Shown: piece by piece, positions 1,714 to 25,019 of the stretch | Layout: each line of letters starts with the position of its first letter | How positions within the stretch are numbered: the first letter of the stretch is position 1 | Source of the DNA: a virus | Lineage: Duplodnaviria > Caudoviricetes | Length of the DNA stretch: 49,662 nt | Virus record (IMG/VR): IMGVR_UViG_3300037797_000107 | Coordinates: 1 to 49,662 of that record | Direction: 5' to 3' (one strand) | The notes under the pieces: generated by a model | What the model was told of the DNA's origin: nothing | Seen by the model: only the letters and a program-made list of their open reading frames with translations | The model's database searches: none | Translations under genes and position numbers: made by a program

Positions 1714-4616
1714 CAGATGTACCGCCCCTCGTATTTCCCGACCGCCGATTTCATCGTGTGCGCCATGAACTCAGCGGCGGCGTCGCTGGTGCGGAACTGC
1801 GCCAGGAACTCCCGCTCCCCCTCGTTGCCGACCCGCATCTTCACCTGCATCGGTACGCCCTCGTTCAGCAGCCGGTTCGCCTCGGAGTAGTAGGCCAGGG
1901 CGTCCGGGGCCATCGGATCGTTCGAGGCCTTCAGGTACCGCGTCTCATAGAGCCGCTGCGCCTCCCGCGCCCATCCGAGGACCTGCGCATCCGGCCCGCT
2001 GCCGTTGGTCTGCTCCAACCGGTACCGGCACAGATGGATCAGGTCCCGCAGCCAGAGGAAGTATCCGAGCATCCGGTCCGGGTACTTCGCCCGGTCCCGG
2101 ACCACCAGGTCGATGTTGCGCAGGAACCGATTCCGGCGGACGTCCTCGGTCAGATACCCGTCGTGCGCGATCCAGGTGTCGGAAAGAATCAGCGCGTACC
2201 CGACGCCCTTGTTCATCTCCGTCTCGGGGTGCTCGTGGACCACGCCGTAGAACCGCATCCCCTTCCGGTTGCGGAACAGACGCATCGGAAGGTCGGGCTT
2301 CATGTTCATCGGCGGATCGACGGAGAGATGGTGCTGTTGCACCCCGTAGGCGTTCAGGATGTTCGGGCGCAGGTACTTCAGGAGCTTCGAGGGATTGAGT
2401 ATCTCCTCGTCGGAATCGATCCACAGGATCCAGTCGCCCTTCGCCTGCGCGATGGACCGGTTCCGCGCCTCGTCGAACCCCACCTCCATCGGATTCAAGC
2501 CCTCGATCACCGTCGCCCCGTAGCACTCCGCGATGGAGCGCGTCGAGTCGGTGGTCTTCGGGTCGACCGCGATGATCACCTCGTCGGCGAACCTGCGGAC
2601 GCTTTTCAGGGTCCGGTGGAGCATCGCCTCGGCGTTGTAGGCGATCATGCAGACCGATACGGTCTCCCGCGGGGCCTGCCAGCGAAGCTTGCGCTGCAGG
2701 TTGACCGTCCCCGTGGGCTTCTCCGGATCGTTCGTATAGATCACGTAGTGGTGGCCGCAGGGGACCCCGAGATCATCCTTGGACACCTGCCGGTAGAAGA
2801 CCTGGACGTCCTTCTTCTCGCCGAAGATGTCCATCAGGTCGTTCATCTCGTAGTGCCGCAGGTGGCAGCGATGCGGGAAGGTCTCGTACGACATCGCCTC
2901 CCACGGACCGTACGGCACGGTGATGAAGATCGTTCCGCCGGGATTGCACCACTTTTCCAACCGGGCGATCAGGGCTGCGGGATCGAGGACGTGTTCGAGG
3001 ACCTCGTTCAGCACTATGAGGTCGTATTGTGTCCCGATATCCAATATCGGCTGGCTCATCTCATCGTAAACATGGAACTCGACGTTCCCTTGCTTCGCGT
3101 ACTTCTTCTTGCACTCCTCGGCCAGTTCGATGTTTCGGCGTGTCACGTCCAGTCCGACGAACTGTGCCTCGGGGATCTCGTTCGCCGCCCGGATCGTCTG
3201 ATGCCCGATCCAGCAGCCGTAGTCGAGGACGTTCTTGATCTTCCCCTTGTTGCGCCGCAGGAAGTCCCGCAGCGTGAGCCAGCGCATCTCGTATTCGCTA
3301 TGCTCGAAGTGATCGACCGTCGCCCCGGCGTCGACCAGCTTGTAATGCTCCCGGTACGCCTCCGGGGACTCGGTGAACGCCCATCCCTGCGCGACGAATG
3401 CCTTCTCCTTATCGCAAAGGGGAAGCGGATGCGCCTTCTCGATCTCCCGGCACATCTCGATGTCGGAGACGCGTAGGAGGTGCTTGTAGACCCGGTCCGG
3501 ATCGGAGGTGCGCTCCGCCAGGATCTCGTCGGCCAGCACCGTCAGGCGCTCGGCGACCGACTCCCATCCGAGAGAGACGCCCTGCTTGTACGCCTCCCGG
3601 GAGAGCCGCTGCCAGCCGATATCGTCGTGGTAGAGGCGCTTGACCTCCTTCACGAACCGCCGATGGACAGCCTCGTCGTGCCCGTCGCCGGGGATGAGGA
3701 TGCCGGTCCCGGGGGAAACCGTCTCCTTCAGGGCGCCGCGGGCCGTGGAGAGGAACGGGAGCCCGCACGCCTGCGCTTCCATGGCACTGATGCAGCTGAT
3801 CTCGTCGAAGGTCTGCGCGACCGGCGACGGGGTCGGGTAGATGTAGAGCCACGACCGCGAATAGAGGTCGTAGAGCTGCTTCTTCGTCAGGCTCCCGAGC
3901 AGCCGCACGTTCGGCAACTCGTGACAGCGCGACCAGAGGGACTCGTAGTAGGCCCGCATCTGGTCGACCGTGTTGTCGTAATGCGCGACCAGCAGGGTCG
4001 CCTCCGGGACCTCGCCGGCCAGCTGCTCCATGATCCCGCCCGGGCGCACGAGGTTCTCCAGCCCGCGTTCCGGCCGGGCGCAGTAGACCATCTGCCCCTT
4101 GACCTTCTCGGCGGACCGGCGCGGCGCGGGGAACAGGGAGAGGTCGATCCCGTTCCGGATGACCTCGATTCCCTCGTCGGGGATCCCGTAGACCTCCTTG
4201 TACTGGTTTTTCTGGAACTGGCTCATCAGCAGCACGCGGTCGGTCTGGTACATCGTCCCGCGCACCTGCCCCTCGGCCCGCTGGAGCGCGAGGTCGTGGC
4301 ACCACAGGAAGCAGACCTTCGCGTTGTGCGGATGCGACAGGAAATCCGAGGCGCGGGAGACGATCAGCACGTCGATGTCCGCCCCGCGCGCGTACTCGGA
4401 CGATGCCTGGATTGGCAGGTACTGGACATCGTTGACCGCAATCGGCTGCTGGCAGGGGGAGAAGACGATCACGCGGTTCTTCCCGCCGAAGGCGTCCTTC
4501 CCCTTCGCGAGGGCCTCGGCCAACTGGATCGCGGCGGTCTCGGAGCCGCCCAGGGAGCGTTCCTTGAGCGTGTTGCCGTCGTGCCGCATTCCTGGGGAGA
4601 CGATGGCGAAGTTCAT
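1713..4616 (-). CDS. Three-domain fusion: GT4-like glycosyltransferase + class I SAM methyltransferase + GT2 glycosyltransferase (967 aa)
   Basis: GGSETA and E-x-SCISAMEAQACG (GT-B fold); VLDYGC and EVLEHV...PGG (MTase); SVCMIAYNAE...ARNRSI...WILWIDSDE (GT2). Start overlaps the upstream stop (ATGA). Confidence 0.9.
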   Translation of the reverse strand: MNFAIVSPGMRHDGNTLKERSLGGSETAAIQLAEALAKGKDAFGGKNRVIVFSPCQQPIAVNDVQYLPIQASSEYARGADIDVLIVSRASDFLSHPHNAKVCFLWCHDLALQRAEGQVRGTMYQTDRVLLMSQFQKNQYKEVYGIPDEGIEVIRNGIDLSLFPAPRRSAEKVKGQMVYCARPERGLENLVRPGGIMEQLAGEVPEATLLVAHYDNTVDQMRAYYESLWSRCHELPNVRLLGSLTKKQLYDLYSRSWLYIYPTPSPVAQTFDEISCISAMEAQACGLPFLSTARGALKETVSPGTGILIPGDGHDEAVHRRFVKEVKRLYHDDIGWQRLSREAYKQGVSLGWESVAERLTVLADEILAERTSDPDRVYKHLLRVSDIEMCREIEKAHPLPLCDKEKAFVAQGWAFTESPEAYREHYKLVDAGATVDHFEHSEYEMRWLTLRDFLRRNKGKIKNVLDYGCWIGHQTIRAANEIPEAQFVGLDVTRRNIELAEECKKKYAKQGNVEFHVYDEMSQPILDIGTQYDLIVLNEVLEHVLDPAALIARLEKWCNPGGTIFITVPYGPWEAMSYETFPHRCHLRHYEMNDLMDIFGEKKDVQVFYRQVSKDDLGVPCGHHYVIYTNDPEKPTGTVNLQRKLRWQAPRETVSVCMIAYNAEAMLHRTLKSVRRFADEVIIAVDPKTTDSTRSIAECYGATVIEGLNPMEVGFDEARNRSIAQAKGDWILWIDSDEEILNPSKLLKYLRPNILNAYGVQQHHLSVDPPMNMKPDLPMRLFRNRKGMRFYGVVHEHPETEMNKGVGYALILSDTWIAHDGYLTEDVRRNRFLRNIDLVVRDRAKYPDRMLGYFLWLRDLIHLCRYRLEQTNGSGPDAQVLGWAREAQRLYETRYLKASNDPMAPDALAYYSEANRLLNEGVPMQVKMRVGNEGEREFLAQFRTSDAAAEFMAHTMKSAVGKYEGRYI

Positions 4617-4822
4617 CGCCCGCCCCCTTTCCCGACGAGCCGGCCGATCTTCTTCATCGGCACCACCTCGCCGCCCGCGAAGATCTCCAGGATCGCCCCC
4701 TTGTGCCGCACGATCAGCTCCTTGAACTCCCCGTCCGTCACGCCGACCCCCTTGACCGGATCGCCGTGCACAGTGCACTTCGCATACCCCGCCTTCCCGC
4801 AGACACAGATCCCCCGCGTCAT
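4613..4822 (-). CDS. Small hypothetical protein (Cys/His-rich N terminus)
   Basis: ATGA overlaps with both neighbours; GGAGG RBS. Confidence 0.6.
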   Translation of the reverse strand: MTRGICVCGKAGYAKCTVHGDPVKGVGVTDGEFKELIVRHKGAILEIFAGGEVVPMKKIGRLVGKGGGR

Positions 4823-6784: not shown

Positions 6785-7150
6785 TTAAAGTGCGATGTAA
6801 GTGGGTCCGCCGAAGAGTTCCGCGGTCCCGACCGATCCCGATGCCGCCGCCTTGATCATCCAGCCGAGCGCGACCTCGCCGGAGGTGACGATCGCCACCT
6901 GCCCGGAGTTCGCGTTGCTCTGCCCGATGAACGCGCCGTCGCCGATGGAGGTGGCCATGTAGATCTTCGACCGCCCCTTCGAGATGACCTGCGCGTGCTG
7001 GCCGCTTTCGGGCTTGTTCTGGAGGATGCCGTAGGCGTTCGTCTCCGACGTCGCCAGCACCCCCGAGAGGTTGACGAACTTGTACTGCTGGCTGGAGAGA
7101 TCCGCCCCGGCCACAACGGTATACGCGATGCCCCAATTCCCGGTTCCCAT
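6785..7150 (-). CDS. Capsid decoration/cement protein (DUF2190-like)
   Basis: AGADLSSQQYKFV...GILQNKPESG motif directly upstream of the capsid gene. Confidence 0.75.
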   Translation of the reverse strand: MGTGNWGIAYTVVAGADLSSQQYKFVNLSGVLATSETNAYGILQNKPESGQHAQVISKGRSKIYMATSIGDGAFIGQSNANSGQVAIVTSGEVALGWMIKAAASGSVGTAELFGGPTYIAL

Positions 7151-7165
7151 GTATTTCTACCTCCC

Positions 7166-7891
7166 TTAGAGTGCGATGAAAGACGGTCCGCCGAACAGGT
7201 CGACGACGGTATTCGTTGAGCCGGAGGTCCCGTAGGTCACGATGATCCCGAGAGCGATGCCTCCCGACGTCACGATGGCGCCCGCGCCGGAAGTCGCGTT
7301 GGACTGCCCGATGAAGGAGTTGATGCCGGCGGAGACCGCCATGTAGAGGTTCGTCCGGCCCCGCTGGATGACGCCGCCGGTGCTGCCGGAAGCGACCGCC
7401 GCACGGGACACGCCCGCGATCGGCGAAGTTTCCGAGCCCGCCAGCGTGCCACCGTAGGTTACGAACCGGAACGCCCCGGCGTTCGTGGAGCTGTGCGTCG
7501 AGGTGATCGAGGCGCCGCCCGCTAGGTCCGACGCGGCGTCCTGGATGTAGATCGGCGCTCCGAACAGGTCGACCCGGGCGAGCCCCCCGGAGGCACACTC
7601 GGAAGCCGTGATGCCCCAGGCGTACCCGGGAGCCGTGATCAGCGCCCCCGCGCCCGAGGTGACGCTGCTCTGGCCGACCCACGCGCCCTTGCTCGTGGGC
7701 TGGCACATGTAGAGCTTCGTGCGCCCCTGCTTCGCGTAGGCGACGTGCTCCGCGGACTGCGGCTTGTTCTGGATCACCCCGACGGGGTTGGTCTGAGAGG
7801 TTGCGAGAACGCCGGTCGGACCGACGAACTTGTACTGCTGTGAAGACAGGTCCGCGCCGGCAACCAGCGCCAGATCGTTGCGCCAGCTCAT
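7166..7891 (-). CDS. Tandem two-domain DUF2190-like decoration protein (241 aa)
   Basis: Paralogue of 6785-7150 (AGADLSSQQYKFV, GVIQNKP). Two units end in DLFGAPIYI and DLFGGPSFIAL. Confidence 0.7.
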   Translation of the reverse strand: MSWRNDLALVAGADLSSQQYKFVGPTGVLATSQTNPVGVIQNKPQSAEHVAYAKQGRTKLYMCQPTSKGAWVGQSSVTSGAGALITAPGYAWGITASECASGGLARVDLFGAPIYIQDAASDLAGGASITSTHSSTNAGAFRFVTYGGTLAGSETSPIAGVSRAAVASGSTGGVIQRGRTNLYMAVSAGINSFIGQSNATSGAGAIVTSGGIALGIIVTYGTSGSTNTVVDLFGGPSFIAL

Positions 7892-9052: not shown

Positions 9053-9874
9053 TCAGTTCGTCCCGATCGCCATGCAACCGTCGATCCGCGCGTTCGCAAC
9101 GCCGCTGCGTCTCAGCCATCCGACCATGTCCGCGTGATACTCGTCGTCCGTCCGACCGTCGGCGAAATCGAAATACGCCTTGTTCGACGGCAGGTGCAGG
9201 GAGATGGAGATGTACCGGCACCCGGAGAGCTCTCGCACCGGCGGTCCGTCCGCGATCGCGTACTCTCCGCCCTCGATGTCCATCTTCAGGTAGTCGATTG
9301 AACCGTGTTCCAGGAGGATCGGGGAGAGAAGATCCGATAGGGAGATCGTCTCCACGTCGCACTCGGAGAGCTTCGACCCCTTGAACGCGAGCGACCGCTG
9401 CCCGGGGAACGGTGATCCCATCCGCAACGGGACGAGCGTGTCGGACTCCACGGCGACCGCCCGCTCGATGATCTCCACCTTGTGCTCCAGCTCGTTGTTC
9501 TTCGCGTTCCGCCGCAGGATCATGAGATTCAGGGGCGAGGGCTCCACGGCGTAGACGTACGCGCCGCGCTGCGCCGCCTGCAGGGCGAACGTGCCCGCGT
9601 GCGCCCCGATGTCCACGACGATGCTCAGGGGGCCGGGGTACTTCGCGATCTCCTTCCGGGTGTCCTCCAGCAGGTGCGATTCGTTCGGCTGGATCTGGAA
9701 GGTCAGGCCCTCCCACTCGATCGACGCGGTGACGAGTCCGCAGATCGCCAGTCCGGGCTTCGTCCACCAGTCGCACGTCGCGTTCGCATCGAACGCCGCG
9801 CCGCCCTTCACCTGGCAGAACCGGATCGTCCCCTCCCCCGCGCCGTGCGCGCAGGAGTCGCAGGTCTGCGTCAC
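9053..9874 (-). CDS. FkbM-family methyltransferase with Cys-rich N terminus
   Basis: VVDIGAHAGTF, YAVEP, IDYLKMDIEGGEY. GTG start overlaps the gpF stop. Confidence 0.85.
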   Translation of the reverse strand: MTQTCDSCAHGAGEGTIRFCQVKGGAAFDANATCDWWTKPGLAICGLVTASIEWEGLTFQIQPNESHLLEDTRKEIAKYPGPLSIVVDIGAHAGTFALQAAQRGAYVYAVEPSPLNLMILRRNAKNNELEHKVEIIERAVAVESDTLVPLRMGSPFPGQRSLAFKGSKLSECDVETISLSDLLSPILLEHGSIDYLKMDIEGGEYAIADGPPVRELSGCRYISISLHLPSNKAYFDFADGRTDDEYHADMVGWLRRSGVANARIDGCMAIGTN

Positions 9875-10635
9875 GAAACCCTCCCTGTCGCCGCGATCCC
9901 TTCCGAGACCGTCGGCGTTGCGAACCCCGTCTGCGGCTTCACGTCGATTACCCCCTGCTTGAGCATCTGCTCCTGCCACCCGTGGTCGAGCCGGGTCACG
10001 GGGAGAAGCATCGACCGGCAGTTGTAATGGTTCGGCGGCGGGTATCCGTTCAGCGTCGCCTCCGTGAAGATCTTCCCGTGGAGCGCACGGCAGATCGGCG
10101 TCGTGACCGAATCGATGATCGCCGAGTACCGGTACGCCTGCACCCACCCGCGAAGCTCCGGCTGCTGCATCATGGTGAGGCGAGAATGGTTGTACATGTC
10201 CATCACGTTCGTCCGGGCGATCACCTCGGAGCGGGACGCCACATTCACCCTGCGGCCCGCGGCGTCCGTCGCCGGCAGCCACTCCCGCAGCGACTCGTAC
10301 AGGCCCTCCTCGAAGCCGGATCCCGAGGGGTTCTCCACCGGGTGTTCCTTCGACCAGTTGAGGATGTAGTTCCGCGCCACTTTCAGGATCGCGTCTTTCA
10401 CGATTCCCGTGATCCAGAATGCCCGCTCCGCCGCGTACCGCTCCAGAATCCGGTCCGCCGTCGGAAACAGGGATTTCTTCGCCGCGAAGGTGCGCGGCTG
10501 CAGCTGCAATTCCTGCTCGAGGTGCGTTATGCCGAGAGAGGCCGCGGCGTCCAGCATCCGGCGGACGGCCCGCTTGATCTTCGTCGCCTCATCGCCCGGA
10601 AAGGTCAGGCGGTCCAGATTCAGGATTTTTTTTTT
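9871..10635 (-). CDS. Head morphogenesis protein (Mu gpF / SPP1 gp7-like), probably made as a frameshift extension of portal
   Basis: IARTN, YSAIIDSVTTPICRALHG, PPNHYNCRS. The frame is open up to the A10 run; the first ATG (10557) has no RBS. Confidence 0.8.
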   Translation of the reverse strand, partial: KKKILNLDRLTFPGDEATKIKRAVRRMLDAAASLGITHLEQELQLQPRTFAAKKSLFPTADRILERYAAERAFWITGIVKDAILKVARNYILNWSKEHPVENPSGSGFEEGLYESLREWLPATDAAGRRVNVASRSEVIARTNVMDMYNHSRLTMMQQPELRGWVQAYRYSAIIDSVTTPICRALHGKIFTEATLNGYPPPNHYNCRSMLLPVTRLDHGWQEQMLKQGVIDVKPQTGFATPTVSEGIAATGRVS

Positions 10636-21386: not shown

Positions 21387-21408
21387 GGTAGCCCCTCCAT
21401 TGGCGGGA

Positions 21409-21437
21409 ATAGTAAACCAAAGATTTACCCGTGTCAA
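21409..21437 (-). promoter_or_regulatory. Leftward early promoter with overlapping operator
   Basis: TTGACA-17-TACTAT containing the palindrome GTAAA-N7-TTTAC. Confidence 0.8.
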
Positions 21438-21499
21438 GGGGCCAATTTCCCCGGGAGCGAGTTTTGCAGATTTTGTCGAAACATAACCGAGGGGAACCC

Positions 21500-21742
21500 A
21501 TGACTCGCATCGACTACGCCGGTTATTCCAGGAACGTAGCCATGTACCTCAGAGATAGATGTAAGCGGGAAAACATAAAACAAGATACCTGGCAGGGGTT
21601 ATTTGGCTTTTCAAAACAAGCAGTTAACTCATGGAGGGGTGGGCGGGGATTCCCGAGCTTTGAAAACCTTCTGACCATCGCAGGGCACTTTGACGAGAAG
21701 CTCGATGTGATCGTAAAGTGGAGGACGCGCCGCATATCGTAG
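21500..21742 (+). CDS. CI-like XRE HTH repressor (80 aa, no peptidase domain)
   Basis: FGFSKQAVNSWRGGRGFPSFENLLTIAGHF; divergent from cro. Confidence 0.8.
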   Translation: MTRIDYAGYSRNVAMYLRDRCKRENIKQDTWQGLFGFSKQAVNSWRGGRGFPSFENLLTIAGHFDEKLDVIVKWRTRRIS

Positions 21743-21835
21743 GCTTGTCGCATATCTGAGTAAACCTTTCCCCATATAGTTCCCTCCCCTTCTCAGCCCT
21801 GCGAAAATTAATTTTCACTCCCCCGTCATTACCCC

Positions 21836-21864
21836 TTGACAAGAGTAAAGGACTGATTTACTAT
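21836..21864 (+). promoter_or_regulatory. Rightward early promoter with overlapping operator
   Basis: TTGACA-17-TACTAT with the same GTAAA-N7-TTTAC palindrome. Confidence 0.8.
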
Positions 21865-22007
21865 CCCCCCAAGATTGCACGAACTGGCCTACGGGCCGAC
21901 GCGGTACCGGGTGATCGTTCGCAAGCTGCGGATTGCGTCAGGGATCGACGGATCAGGTGGCAGGGCAAGCCCGGGATGCAAAGCGGGTCGCTCATTGAAT
22001 TTTGAAA

Positions 22008-22070
22008 GGGATGGCCGCTGCATCCGGTCCCACCCGGCTGGCCACCGGACCCCGCGTGCAAGGCCATCCC
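22008..22070 (+). other. Long RNA hairpin immediately 5' of pentamer array 1
   Basis: Nested stems GGGATGGCC/GGCCATCCC, TGCA/TGCA and TCCGGT/ACCGGA. Confidence 0.6.
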
Positions 22071-22079
22071 GCAAGAAGG

Positions 22080-22329
22080 GGTTCGGAATGGTGAGGCTCG
22101 GAATGGCTGGGCGGTGAGGGGCATGGCACGGTGATACGCGGACGGGCGGGGTTCGGTTTGACATGTCTCGGGCGGGCGAGGAGTGGAAAGGTCGGGCAGG
22201 GCTGGGTTGTCTCAGGCAGGAAACGGCACGGAGTGGTTAGGCCCGGACAGGTTCGGCAGGGTTCGGCGCTGTCAGGTGCGGTAATGCGGGGTTCGGCGTG
22301 GAATGGTCTTGCTTGGTAGGGTTCGGCCA
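22080..22329 (+). ncRNA. Pentamer array 1, (GGH-NN)x50; putative VIPR-like guide RNA
   Basis: 50 consecutive 5-mers in unbroken phase; 41 begin with GG and the last two bases vary. Confidence 0.75.
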
Positions 22330-22347
22330 AATTAAACAGGAGGTCTT

Positions 22348-22974
22348 ATGGCAAAAGCAGCGTTGAAAGCGGTTGGCGGGGATGTTCCTCAGAACGGCGC
22401 AGCGGAGGAAATCGGCTACCAGATGCCCTACTCGGTCAGCGTGACGATCCGGGGTGATTCGGATTTCCTGTTCCATCGGTGGTCGCCGGAAGCGGTGAAC
22501 GAGAAGGCGCGGGCGGCGAAGGGATCGAAGGCGAAGAAGACCGACAACCTGGAATCCTACGTCTACCGGACGCAGGACGGGAACCTCGCCATCCCCGGCG
22601 AGTACCTTCGTGGGGCGATCATCCACGCGGCGAAGTTCCGGCAGGACCCGCGCTCTCCCCGAAAGTCCGCGATGGATCTGTTCAAGGCCGGTGTGATTTC
22701 CCTGACGCCTCTCGCGGACTGCGGGAAAGCGGAATGGGACTACGAGGATCAGCGGCGCGTGGTGATCCAGCGTAACGGCGTGAATCGTGTCCGTCCCGCT
22801 CTCCGCGCCGGATGGGAAGTCGAGATGGATTTCCTCGTCAACCTTCCCGAGTACATCAGCCCCGAGATGATGAACGACGTGATCCAGCAGGCGGGGCGGC
22901 TCATCGGCATCGGGGATTTCCGCCCGACGTACGGGCGGTTCAAGGTGGTCAAATTCAACAGGATCGAGGATTAA
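22348..22974 (+). CDS. Stand-alone Cas7/RAMP-like protein (Vipr-like)
   Basis: N-terminal strand VSVTIRG, IPGEYLRGAI, and C-terminal Gly loop AGRLIGIGDFRPTYGRF; AGGAGG RBS; flanked by pentamer arrays. Confidence 0.75.
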   Translation: MAKAALKAVGGDVPQNGAAEEIGYQMPYSVSVTIRGDSDFLFHRWSPEAVNEKARAAKGSKAKKTDNLESYVYRTQDGNLAIPGEYLRGAIIHAAKFRQDPRSPRKSAMDLFKAGVISLTPLADCGKAEWDYEDQRRVVIQRNGVNRVRPALRAGWEVEMDFLVNLPEYISPEMMNDVIQQAGRLIGIGDFRPTYGRFKVVKFNRIED

Positions 22975-22985
22975 CAATCGGCCGT

Positions 22986-23220
22986 GGCGGGCAGGGGTCT
23001 GGCATGGACTGGAATGGCCCGGTCGTGTGAGGAAAGGCGTGGCGAGGACGGGTCAGGCTTGGACTGGTAGTGCGTGGTCCGGAACGGCGCGCACGGGCCC
23101 GGTGTGGCATGGCGGGACATGGCTGGCTCCGGACGGGTTGAGAATGGCCGGGAGAGGAGTGGTCCGGTGAGGCGAGGAGCGGTGCGGCAGGGAGAGGCAA
23201 TCCGAGGTGGGGCAGGGCAA
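22986..23220 (+). ncRNA. Pentamer array 2, (GGH-NN)x47; putative VIPR-like guide RNA
   Basis: 47 in-phase 5-mers, 39 beginning with GG; ends at an A-rich tract and the next RBS, as array 1 does. Confidence 0.75.
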
Positions 23221-23243
23221 TCAAATAATAAAGGAGAAAGCAC

Positions 23244-23465
23244 ATGAAGCCCTCCGCGGAAACCGTTCTCGCCTACCTGATCCGCAACGGCTGGACGCGC
23301 AATCGGACGCTGATGGAGCAATGCCCCACCGACACGCCGACCAAGCGCATCAGCGAACTGCACAAGGCCCGCCTGATCGTGAAGCGCCGATGCCCGACCG
23401 ATCCGCGATACGTCGAATACCGCGCCAAGACGATGCCGGAAATCCTGATGGGAGGGAATCCATGA
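23244..23465 (+). CDS. Small winged-helix-like protein
   Basis: AAGGAG RBS; TPTKRISELHKARLIVKR. Confidence 0.65.
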   Translation: MKPSAETVLAYLIRNGWTRNRTLMEQCPTDTPTKRISELHKARLIVKRRCPTDPRYVEYRAKTMPEILMGGNP

Positions 23466-23722
23466 AGATCGAGAACCTGATCGAGACCGACGATACCCGC
23501 CGCGAACGGAAGCGCCTCACGCTCACGAAGTTGCAGTTCCTGTGCCTCGGCGTGGCGATCGCCGCGCTGGCCGGATCGCTCGACCCCTGGTGGAAGTCGC
23601 TCCACGTGGCCGTCCTGTTCCTCGTGTTGGCGCTGATCCTGGGGGCGTGCAAGGTCGGCTCGTGCCGGAGGCCTCGGAGGAGAGTGCGTCCCCACCGGCT
23701 GATCGCGCTGCCGAGGGCGTGA
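23462..23722 (+). CDS. Small membrane protein (two TM segments)
   Basis: Two hydrophobic stretches; ATGA overlap. Confidence 0.6.
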   Translation: MKIENLIETDDTRRERKRLTLTKLQFLCLGVAIAALAGSLDPWWKSLHVAVLFLVLALILGACKVGSCRRPRRRVRPHRLIALPRA

Positions 23723-23723
23723 G

Positions 23724-23909
23724 ATGAGCAACCGCCTGCCACTTAAGGACCGCCTCCGCGATCACCCGCTGATGGCGGAGCCGGAGTGCGACGAATGCCG
23801 CGAACTGTTGGGTGAGGAACCTTTCGAGTATGGCAACGATTGCATCTGCCGCGAGTGTCATATACGCCACGTTGATGAAGCGGAGGCGAAACTTGAAGGC
23901 GACCGATAA
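23724..23909 (+). CDS. Small zinc-finger protein
   Basis: CDEC...CREC. Confidence 0.6.
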   Translation: MSNRLPLKDRLRDHPLMAEPECDECRELLGEEPFEYGNDCICRECHIRHVDEAEAKLEGDR

Positions 23910-24072
23910 GGACCGCTGTATATCCTGCGGGCGCAAGTTCGATGAGGTCGTGTTCCGGTTCGACCAGTCGGACACATGCACCGTGTGTCAGCACTATGAA
24001 TCAAGGGAGCATCGGGCTTCGTTAAGAGATGACCGGCGGGAATGGTGCCGGATAAACGGGAGGTGCTGGTGA
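23893..24072 (+). CDS. Small zinc-finger protein
   Basis: CISC...CTVC; GGAGG before TTG. Confidence 0.5.
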   Translation: MKATDKDRCISCGRKFDEVVFRFDQSDTCTVCQHYESREHRASLRDDRREWCRINGRCW

Positions 24073-25019
24073 TGGTGGAGTTTCGGAAAGCGGAACGGAA
24101 GAAAGCAAAGCTGCGATGCGGAATCTCTGGACCCTCGGGGTCGGGGAAGACGTACTCCGCCCTCCTCCTGGCGTTCGGGCTTGGAGGAAGGGTTGCGGTG
24201 ATCGACACGGAGAACGGTTCCGCCGATCTGTACGCCGATCTCGGGGAGTACGACGTTCTCCCGATCAAATCCCCCTTCACCACGGACAAGTACATCGAGG
24301 GGATCAAGGCGGCGGAGAAGGCCGGATACTCGACCATCATCATCGACTCCCTTTCCCATGCGTGGTCGGGGGAAGGCGGACTCCTCGACCAGCAGGGGAA
24401 AATCGCCGACAGCGGGAGGGGTAACTCCTACACAGCATGGCGGACGATTACCCCGAAGCACAACGCGCTTGTGGAGGCGATGCTGCAGAGCGGGTGTCAC
24501 ATCATCGCCACGGTGCGGTCGAAGACGGAGTACGTCATCGAGAAGAACGACAAAGGAAAGGATGCCCCGCGCAAAGTGGGGATGGCCCCGATTCAGCGCG
24601 AGGGGATGGAATACGAGTTCACGGTGTTCTTCGACCTGTCGATAGACCACACAGCTTCCACGTCGAAGGATCGCACCTCTCAATTCGATGGGGTGTATTT
24701 CAAACCCGTGATTGAAACGGGAGAGAAGATGCTGGCATGGCTCAACTCAGGGGCGGATGTACCACCTCCGGCGGAAACCGAACCCCCCCCCGAAGAAACC
24801 CCTGCGGATCCCGAAGCAATCACGGCGGCGCAGATCACGAAGATTCAGGCCATGTTCACATCCATCGGCATCAAGGACCGCGAGGAAAAGAGGGCGTGGG
24901 TTATCAAGGCACTCAAGTTGGAGAAACTGGAATCGATCAAGGACCTGAAAAGACATGAAGCGTCCAACCTGATCTCAGCCCTCGAAGACGAGGAATCGAA
25001 GAAGGGAGCCGCCGCATGA
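24072..25019 (+). CDS. Sak4-like / AAA_24 ATPase recombinase
   Basis: GPSGSGKT, IDTENGS, IIDSLSHAW, EYEFT; adjacent to ssb. Confidence 0.88.
   Translation: MVEFRKAERKKAKLRCGISGPSGSGKTYSALLLAFGLGGRVAVIDTENGSADLYADLGEYDVLPIKSPFTTDKYIEGIKAAEKAGYSTIIIDSLSHAWSGEGGLLDQQGKIADSGRGNSYTAWRTITPKHNALVEAMLQSGCHIIATVRSKTEYVIEKNDKGKDAPRKVGMAPIQREGMEYEFTVFFDLSIDHTASTSKDRTSQFDGVYFKPVIETGEKMLAWLNSGADVPPPAETEPPPEETPADPEAITAAQITKIQAMFTSIGIKDREEKRAWVIKALKLEKLESIKDLKRHEASNLISALEDEESKKGAAA

What the first reader, a model, noticed from the sequence alone, without database searches (positions are those of the whole stretch)
22008..23220. Lone Cas7/RAMP-like gene between two phased GGH-NN pentamer arrays: candidate RNA-guided (VIPR-like) system
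Seen: 22080-22329 is 50 consecutive 5-mers in unbroken phase (41 start with GG; the third base is nearly always C, T or A; bases 4-5 vary freely). 22986-23220 is a second run of 47 (39 GG). They bracket a 208-aa gene with RAMP/Cas7 hallmarks (IPGEYLRGAI; C-terminal GIGDFRPTYGRF Gly loop), with no other cas gene and no CRISPR repeat. The locus is the first confidently called unit behind the repressor-controlled promoter at 21836. Known: Cas7 polymerises along guide RNA at fixed periodicity. I recall a recently reported phage system (VIPR) with alternating GGY/NN guides; that recollection needs checking. Inference: each protomer binds one GGH while the NN dinucleotides together read a target non-contiguously.
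Basis: partly seen in the sequence, partly recalled or inferred. Interest (0 to 1): 0.95.

Follow-up and report, generated by a model that had tools for sequence, protein, structure and literature searches.

The report
Phage VIPR system, long unbroken guides
This complete 49.5-kb phage carries a Cas7-like gene between two long five-base-step repeat arrays, a new example of the VIPR RNA-guided system published in 2026, and it likely uses the arrays as guide RNAs to silence rival mobile elements, one guide possibly aimed at a serine integrase gene.

Summary
The 208-aa protein has one relative among solved structures, SUSP1 Vipr (PDB 36pp, profile E 3e-10, near full length), keeps its guide-binding residues and folds like Cas7/Csm3. 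60 of 65 distinct homologue loci with enough flank carry the same arrays. So this is VIPR, described in three 2026 preprints; the scan has found it on many other genomes. The 1-nt-skip code holds in this clade: another phage's guide matches this phage's own vipr gene 22/22 with the skip on the wobble base. The last 8-9 units of array 1 decode to a conserved motif of large serine integrases (about 60% real); other targets were not found. Differences from SUSP1: no tail, no conserved accessory gene, 24% GGA units, and tracts of about 50 units with no register slip, so how guides are cut out is open. New member of a known kind.

The parts
21836..21864 (+). Predicted sigma-70-type early promoter; twin of a leftward promoter at 21437-21409 across a small repressor-like gene (21500-21742)
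   Evidence: 10 of 12 consensus match; 37-nt, 78% inverted match between the two promoter regions; weak HTH hits for the gene between
21865..22079 (+). Leader of about 215 nt, with a predicted hairpin at 22008-22070; role unknown
   Evidence: fold -35.1 kcal/mol, z -1.5; no Rfam match at E up to 1; no match in 121 related loci
22080..22329 (+). Array 1: 50 in-phase GGH-NN units, predicted vrRNA guides; ends 18 nt before the vipr start codon
   Evidence: relative L062 has the same array-to-RBS junction with different NN
22280..22324 (+). 3' segment of array 1 (units 41-49, counting from 1): candidate guide against a conserved motif of large serine integrases
   Evidence: about 60% real
22348..22974 (+). 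vipr gene, 208-aa RAMP (Cas7-like) protein
   Evidence: SUSP1 Vipr; fold; 7161 homologues; invariant residues
22909..22940 (+). G-loop codons of vipr: predicted target site of a guide carried by another phage (L073)
   Evidence: 22 of 22 NN bases under the 1-nt skip, skip on the wobble base
22986..23220 (+). Array 2: 47 in-phase GGH-NN units, predicted vrRNA guides; no tail, runs to the next ribosome-binding site
   Evidence: 3' flank unstructured; no + strand terminator found in 21400-24100
23244..23465 (+). 73-aa winged-helix gene next in the operon; probably an ordinary early phage gene, not a conserved accessory (vap) gene
   Evidence: HTH_39-like by Atlas features, 0.93; no tblastn match better than E 0.4 in 118 vipr loci

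Best explanation
This is a phage VIPR locus: a Cas7-like Vipr gene between two GGH-NN arrays, whose transcripts likely serve as guide RNAs that direct the protein to silence genes of rival mobile elements. Shown here: arrays, homology to SUSP1 Vipr, fold, family-wide linkage, and the 1-nt-skip code for one guide in this clade. Inferred from the published SUSP1 work: after infection or induction the early promoter transcribes leader, array 1, vipr and array 2; Vipr coats the RNA one protomer per 5-mer and buries the GGH; the NN pairs read double-stranded DNA two bases in every three; the bound filament blocks transcription, with no nuclease in the locus. Each ~50-unit tract is most likely four or five abutting guides of 9-13 units in one register. 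The 3' guide of array 1 probably targets a large serine integrase, which would hold a resident prophage or satellite in the chromosome.
For: Only one PDB sequence matches the family profile at E up to 1: SUSP1 Vipr, E 3.2e-10, profile 34-203 (phmmer E 4e-6). SUSP1 guide contacts H17, E71, R138, D177, R179 align to H43, E85, R149, D190, R192, all invariant in 109 homologues; W178 aligns to F191. Model pLDDT 88.8; Foldseek top hits are type III and VII CRISPR complexes (E 5e-7, TM about 0.5-0.57). Arrays on the gene's strand in 108 of 118 homologue loci and in 60 of 65 distinct loci with 400 or more bases each side. The closest relative (88% identical) has arrays on both sides with different NN. 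In an all-against-all decode of 186 arrays on 1.9 Mb the only outlier is under skip 1: 22/22, in frame, on a vipr G-loop; skips 0, 2, 3 reach 19-20 and two shuffles 19. That guide fits this phage's gene 22/22 and its own gene 18/22. Seed from units 41-48 hits 27 viral stretches, 11 in frame on one serine-integrase motif; profile score 19.8 bits, above all 1000 shuffles; SUSP1 VIPR is shown to target a satellite recombinase with an 18-bp footprint. No self-target in the window, as published for other clades.
Against: No expression or binding data for this locus. Five of six seeds found nothing that extends. The integrase match is 8 units exact and 17 of 18 bases at best, was chosen after the hit so the shuffle tests are partly circular, a chance family cluster also appeared for another seed (5 of 10 hits), no second guide hits the 11 proviruses, and homologue guides are not enriched for that profile overall. 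19 of 80 GG units are GGA, whereas the SUSP1 pocket excludes purines and GGY-to-GGA was among the perturbations said to abolish silencing. No tail, slip or ribozyme inside the tracts to mark guide ends.
Confidence: 0.93

Rival explanations
1. A VIPR locus whose ~50-unit tracts are not cut into short guides: Vipr builds long filaments on the intact early mRNA, so any run of about 10 units can act as a guide, and coating array 1 up to the ribosome-binding site limits Vipr's own translation. This differs from the best reading only in RNA handling.
For: No slip, tail or hammerhead inside either tract; array 1 ends 18 nt from the start codon here and abuts the same RBS in L062; 19 of 218 tracts in the clade, this window's array 2 included, run 40 or more units unbroken, up to 117.
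Against: Most neighbouring tracts in homologues are joined by a +1 slip (41 of 53; 34 six-base against 0 four-base units), the published staggered layout of discrete guides; the L073 guide is a 13-unit block ended by a slip; published filaments have 11-12 subunits.
Confidence: 0.2
2. A decayed or decoy VIPR locus: the protein is a real Vipr, but these degenerate arrays mainly soak up rival Vipr or no longer guide anything.
For: 17 of 97 units lack GG and 19 are GGA, the GGA share (24%) being well above the clade's 333 of 3793; most segments have no target found.
Against: Register is kept perfectly over 97 units, third-base G is still excluded, the gene is intact with every invariant residue, and non-GG units sit inside a 22/22 guide in L073; the paper notes frequent internal degeneracy.
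Confidence: 0.05
3. The arrays are ordinary simple repeats or antisense coding repeats unrelated to the gene.
For: Stop-free antisense frames of 55-130 aa overlap both arrays.
Against: A 5-base period cannot be a codon pattern; NN vary freely; arrays follow the gene in 108 of 118 loci and occur nowhere else in the window.
Confidence: 0.01

Closest known systems
VIPR type II of Escherichia phage SUSP1 (Vipr, PDB 36pp; bioRxiv 10.64898/2026.04.26.720920, whole text read; .720927, parts 1-2 of 6 read)
   Same: Homologous small RAMP with the same guide-contact residues; alternating GG-x/NN 5-mers on the gene's strand; arrays both up- and downstream; phage-borne; no nuclease; no self-target.
   Different: Distant in sequence; tracts of 47-50 units instead of 9-16; no 3' tail or pseudoknot; no conserved vap gene; third base A in 24% of GG units; temperate phage early operon.
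VIPR systems with staggered vrRNA arrays (same paper, main text and legend of fig. S18; figure not visible)
   Same: Tail-less abutting guides; +1 register slips are the rule in this protein's homologues and one lies at the 5' edge of array 2.
   Different: No slip inside either tract here. The type (I-VII) could not be assigned: Fig. 5A, fig. S16-S17 images and data S4 were not visible.
SUSP1 vrRNA4 against the F5 satellite excision recombinase, and vipr-targeting solo vrRNAs (bioRxiv 10.64898/2026.10.15.759431; part 1 of 8, sections 6 and 8 and 12 passages read)
   Same: Short wobble-skipping footprint on a recombinase gene; guides aimed at rivals' vipr genes with lower self-match.
   Different: Here the recombinase target is a prediction against a large serine integrase family with no host link; the vipr-targeting guide sits in a vipr-bearing relative and points at this phage.
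Class 1 CRISPR Cas7/Csm3 backbone
   Same: RAMP fold with thumb and glycine loop.
   Different: No cas operon, no repeat-spacer array; period 5 on the guide and 3 on the target instead of contiguous pairing with every sixth base flipped.

Membership tests
VIPR | Vipr protein: minimal RAMP with RRM core, thumb and G-loop, homologous to known Vipr | tested here: met
   Sole PDB profile hit is SUSP1 Vipr, E 3.2e-10; predicted fold matches type III/VII backbone chains
VIPR | Guide-contact residues (SUSP1 H17, E71, R138, D177, W178, R179) | tested here: met
   H43, E85, R149, D190, F191, R192; five invariant, F191 in 90% or more of 109 sequences
VIPR | Flanking 5-nt repeats with fixed GGY (or related) and variable NN | tested here: met
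   third base C/T in 60 of 80 GG units, A in 19
VIPR | Minimal locus without cas genes or CRISPR array, mostly viral | tested here: met
   complete phage with 127-bp terminal repeat, capsid, terminase, tail and integrase genes
VIPR | 1-nt-skip target code with skip on the wobble base | tested here: inconclusive
   Met for a homologue's guide (22/22); for this locus only one suggestive 8-9-unit match
VIPR | vrRNAs are expressed and bound by Vipr; complex represses transcription | not testable with these tools
   needs small-RNA sequencing, pull-down and reporter assay
VIPR type II (SUSP1, P. fulva) | Each 9-16-unit guide ends in a conserved structured 3' tail | tested here: not met
   arrays run into ribosome-binding sites; 3' flanks fold no better than shuffles; no repeated tail sequence seen
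VIPR type II (SUSP1, P. fulva) | Conserved vap1 DNA-binding gene in the operon | tested here: not met
   next gene (73-aa winged helix) has no match in 118 vipr loci; it was not compared with SUSP1 Vap1 directly, but has no match in the phage collection at E 0.01
VIPR, ribozyme-interspersed arrays | Hammerhead ribozymes between guides | tested here: not met
   no Rfam match; no hammerhead core pattern near the gene (pattern recalled)
VIPR types I-VII | Placement in the published Vipr tree | not testable with these tools
   data S4 and figure images not available
Class 1 CRISPR-Cas | cas operon and repeat-spacer array | tested here: not met

The most novel reading that the evidence does not exclude
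A tail-less, accessory-free VIPR branch in which ~50-unit unpunctuated tracts stay uncut inside the early mRNA, so overlapping windows act as many guides from one RNA, GGA units are read as normal, and Vipr coating array 1 throttles its own translation; guides would be gained by in-register insertion of blocks.
Probability: 0.15. Interest if true: 0.65.

Novelty: new member of a known kind. Interest (0 to 1): 0.33.

Why it matters
As a member it adds a complete temperate phage with a two-part VIPR (one 208-aa protein, RNA with no tail) from a very large branch (7161 homologues) far from the tested SUSP1 system. It gives three testable points: how guides are delimited when a tract has no tail, slip or ribozyme, an architecture not described in the text of the three VIPR preprints that I read (two paper searches; figures and data files unseen); whether this branch accepts GGA; and a two-way conflict in which this phage's vipr gene is the predicted target of another phage's guide. 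A tail-less, accessory-free version would be a still smaller programmable repressor. The principle itself is in print.

Tried and rejected
Self-target search in the window under skips 0-3: nothing above background. Decoded arrays against all held loci and a close vipr-less relative (G001): best 20 of 24, equal to shuffles. Amino-acid-level decode against six frames, own genes and kin genes, including capsid: below shuffles. Exact seeds in IMG/VR: units 5-12, 9-16 and 27-33 of array 2 and 9-16 and 31-38 of array 1 gave 10, 24, 120 (of about 280; 28 of 64 parts scanned), 2 and 2 hits, none extending (77/78, 60/61). My impression that array 2 spells an excisionase or a CxxC motif (recalled motifs) was not supported. 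A 19-of-24 match of array 2 inside the vipr gene of L098 equals shuffles and is out of register with the conserved residues. Integrase-motif pattern, 9 units, 1 mismatch: 0 of 301 genomes of one phylum chosen without a host link. Codon-position test: NN fit positions 1-2 best in 57 of 82 arrays, but with base composition held fixed all three frames score alike (z 5.0-5.8), so it is not used. Pfam and NCBIfam: no match for Vipr; PHROG 4652, unknown function. Sequencing runs: no RNA holder listed; the four laid hold only diverged relatives as contigs. Host not identified: nearest named relative of the AAA gene is labelled Gallionella, others Deltaproteobacteria; only 2 genome loci found.

Full report
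Observation. Both arrays are as described: 50 units with 41 GG at 22080-22329 and 47 with 39 GG at 22986-23220; third base G in 1 of 97 units; 2000 shuffles per array peak at 22 and 20, and the rest of the window at 13. The window is a complete temperate phage: 127-bp terminal repeat, capsid, portal, terminase, tail and tyrosine integrase genes. The locus follows a promoter consensus at 21836-21864 that has an inverted twin at 21437-21409, with a small repressor-like gene between them and a Cro-like gene to the left. This is a lambda-like switch, so VIPR is probably the first unit of an early operon; repressor control is inferred.

Protein. The 208-aa product has 7161 homologues among 7350 candidates, no Pfam or NCBIfam family, and one PDB relative, SUSP1 Vipr: E 4e-6 alone, E 3.2e-10 over profile positions 34-203. 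The model (pLDDT 88.8, pTM 0.80) matches type III and VII CRISPR complexes best (E 5e-7, TM about 0.5-0.57; that library ends in April 2026 and showed no Vipr entry among the rows listed). The SUSP1 residues that grip the GGY map to H43, E85, R149, D190, F191 and R192, five invariant in 109 homologues. The third-base pocket differs (M72 to Y86, C173 to I186).

Family. Arrays lie on the gene's strand in 108 of 118 homologue loci; after removing duplicates and short flanks, in 60 of 65 (32 both sides, 10 upstream only, 18 downstream only, 5 none). The closest relative, L062 (88%), sits in another gene context but has arrays on both sides, the same array-to-RBS junction and different NN except one five-unit block. 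Neighbouring tracts in homologues are mostly offset by +1 (41 of 53), the published staggered layout, yet 19 of 218 tracts run 40 or more units unbroken. The winged-helix gene after array 2 has no match in 118 loci, so no vap is evident.

Code. Decoding 186 distinct arrays against 1.9 Mb of held DNA gave one outlier among the 169 long enough to score, under skip 1 only: a guide just 3' of the vipr gene in L073 matches another phage's vipr G-loop 22/22, skip on the wobble base. It matches this window's gene at 22909-22940 22/22, 4 of 73 distinct homologue sites perfectly, and its own gene 18/22. L121 carries a second guide to the same site, 19/22 on this gene and 17/22 on its own. A non-GG unit lies inside the perfect guide, so degenerate units are read in register. 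This parallels the vipr-targeting guides of the third preprint.

Targets of this locus. No self-target. Of six exact seeds scanned in IMG/VR, five gave nothing that extends. The seed from 22280-22319 gave 27 stretches, 11 of them in frame on the LKSITEPF motif of a large serine integrase family, all 11 over the Resolvase cut-off. One of 120 family proteins fits nine consecutive codons; a profile of 150 relatives scores the segment 19.8 bits, above 1000 of 1000 shuffles. Against this: the family was picked after the hit; another seed gave a 5-of-10 family cluster by chance; no other guide hits the 11 proviruses; homologue guides are not enriched on the profile, though the top one (L012) reads like the catalytic motif at 18.0 bits (shuffle maxima 15.4-18.5). 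With the published recombinase precedent I put it at about 60%. The match stops at unit 41 going 5', which fits several abutting guides in one register.

Mechanism. By inference from SUSP1: Vipr polymerises one protomer per unit, buries GGH, presents NN to pair with double-stranded DNA two bases in three, and blocks transcription. Likely role: silence rival prophages or satellites right after infection or induction. How guides are delimited here is open.

Literature seen. 2026.04.26.720920: whole text and supplement legends, no figures or data files. 2026.04.26.720927: parts 1-2 of 6. 2026.10.15.759431: part 1 of 8, sections 6 and 8, 12 passages. 2026.10.21.760802: 12 passages, reporting 99 VIPR-like clusters. 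Unseen supplements (data S3, S4, fig. 5A, S17) may already contain this clade and its long arrays.

Verdict. Real, correctly interpreted, and already a published kind. New member; modest extra value from the unbroken tracts, the GGA share and the incoming guide. Interest 0.33.

Noticed in passing
L073:1400-1464 and L121:892-946: The first guide 3' of vipr in two other phages decodes to the antisense of the vipr G-loop codons; both fit this window's gene better (22/22, 19/22) than their own (18/22, 17/22), partly through an AGA versus CGN arginine codon switch.
   Followed up: yes
window 21405-21441 and 21832-21868: Two divergent promoters share a 37-nt, 78% inverted sequence around a small repressor-like gene: likely the operator pair of the lysis-lysogeny switch.
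   Followed up: partly
window 21865-22079; L052:2330-2990: The leader has a TTTGAAA run just before the hairpin at 22008; the vipr-less relative L052 has a long leader with similar runs flanking hairpins at the same place in its early operon, resembling boxA antitermination sites (recalled). Contigs of a laid run match 21881-21974 with 10 differences.
   Followed up: partly
window 22245-22269 and L062 about 1475-1499: Five consecutive NN pairs are shared between array 1 and the downstream array of the closest relative, flanks differing: a moved block, a shared target or chance.
   Followed up: partly
L012:3850-3949: A homologue guide decodes to a string like the catalytic motif of serine recombinases (18.0 bits, near the shuffle maximum).
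   Followed up: partly
L035, L119, L126/L127, L124, L133: Five distinct homologue loci (51-59% identical) have no GG-phased array despite full flanks; they may use another 5-mer or be orphans.
   Followed up: no
L112, L017, L117, L032, L028: Unbroken tracts of 117, 71, 63, 59 and 59 units.
   Followed up: no
OR003939.1:22444-23046: A GenBank phage (DSL-LC04) has a 61% identical homologue annotated as a helix-turn-helix regulator, probably a mis-annotation.
   Followed up: no
window 1716-4778 (-): A 1021-aa gene among the head genes joins two glycosyltransferase-like and one methyltransferase-like regions; a second methyltransferase-like ORF lies at 9056-10282.
   Followed up: no
window 6864-7738: Three diverged copies of about 125 nt spaced 384 and 366 bases apart in the head-gene region.
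   Followed up: no
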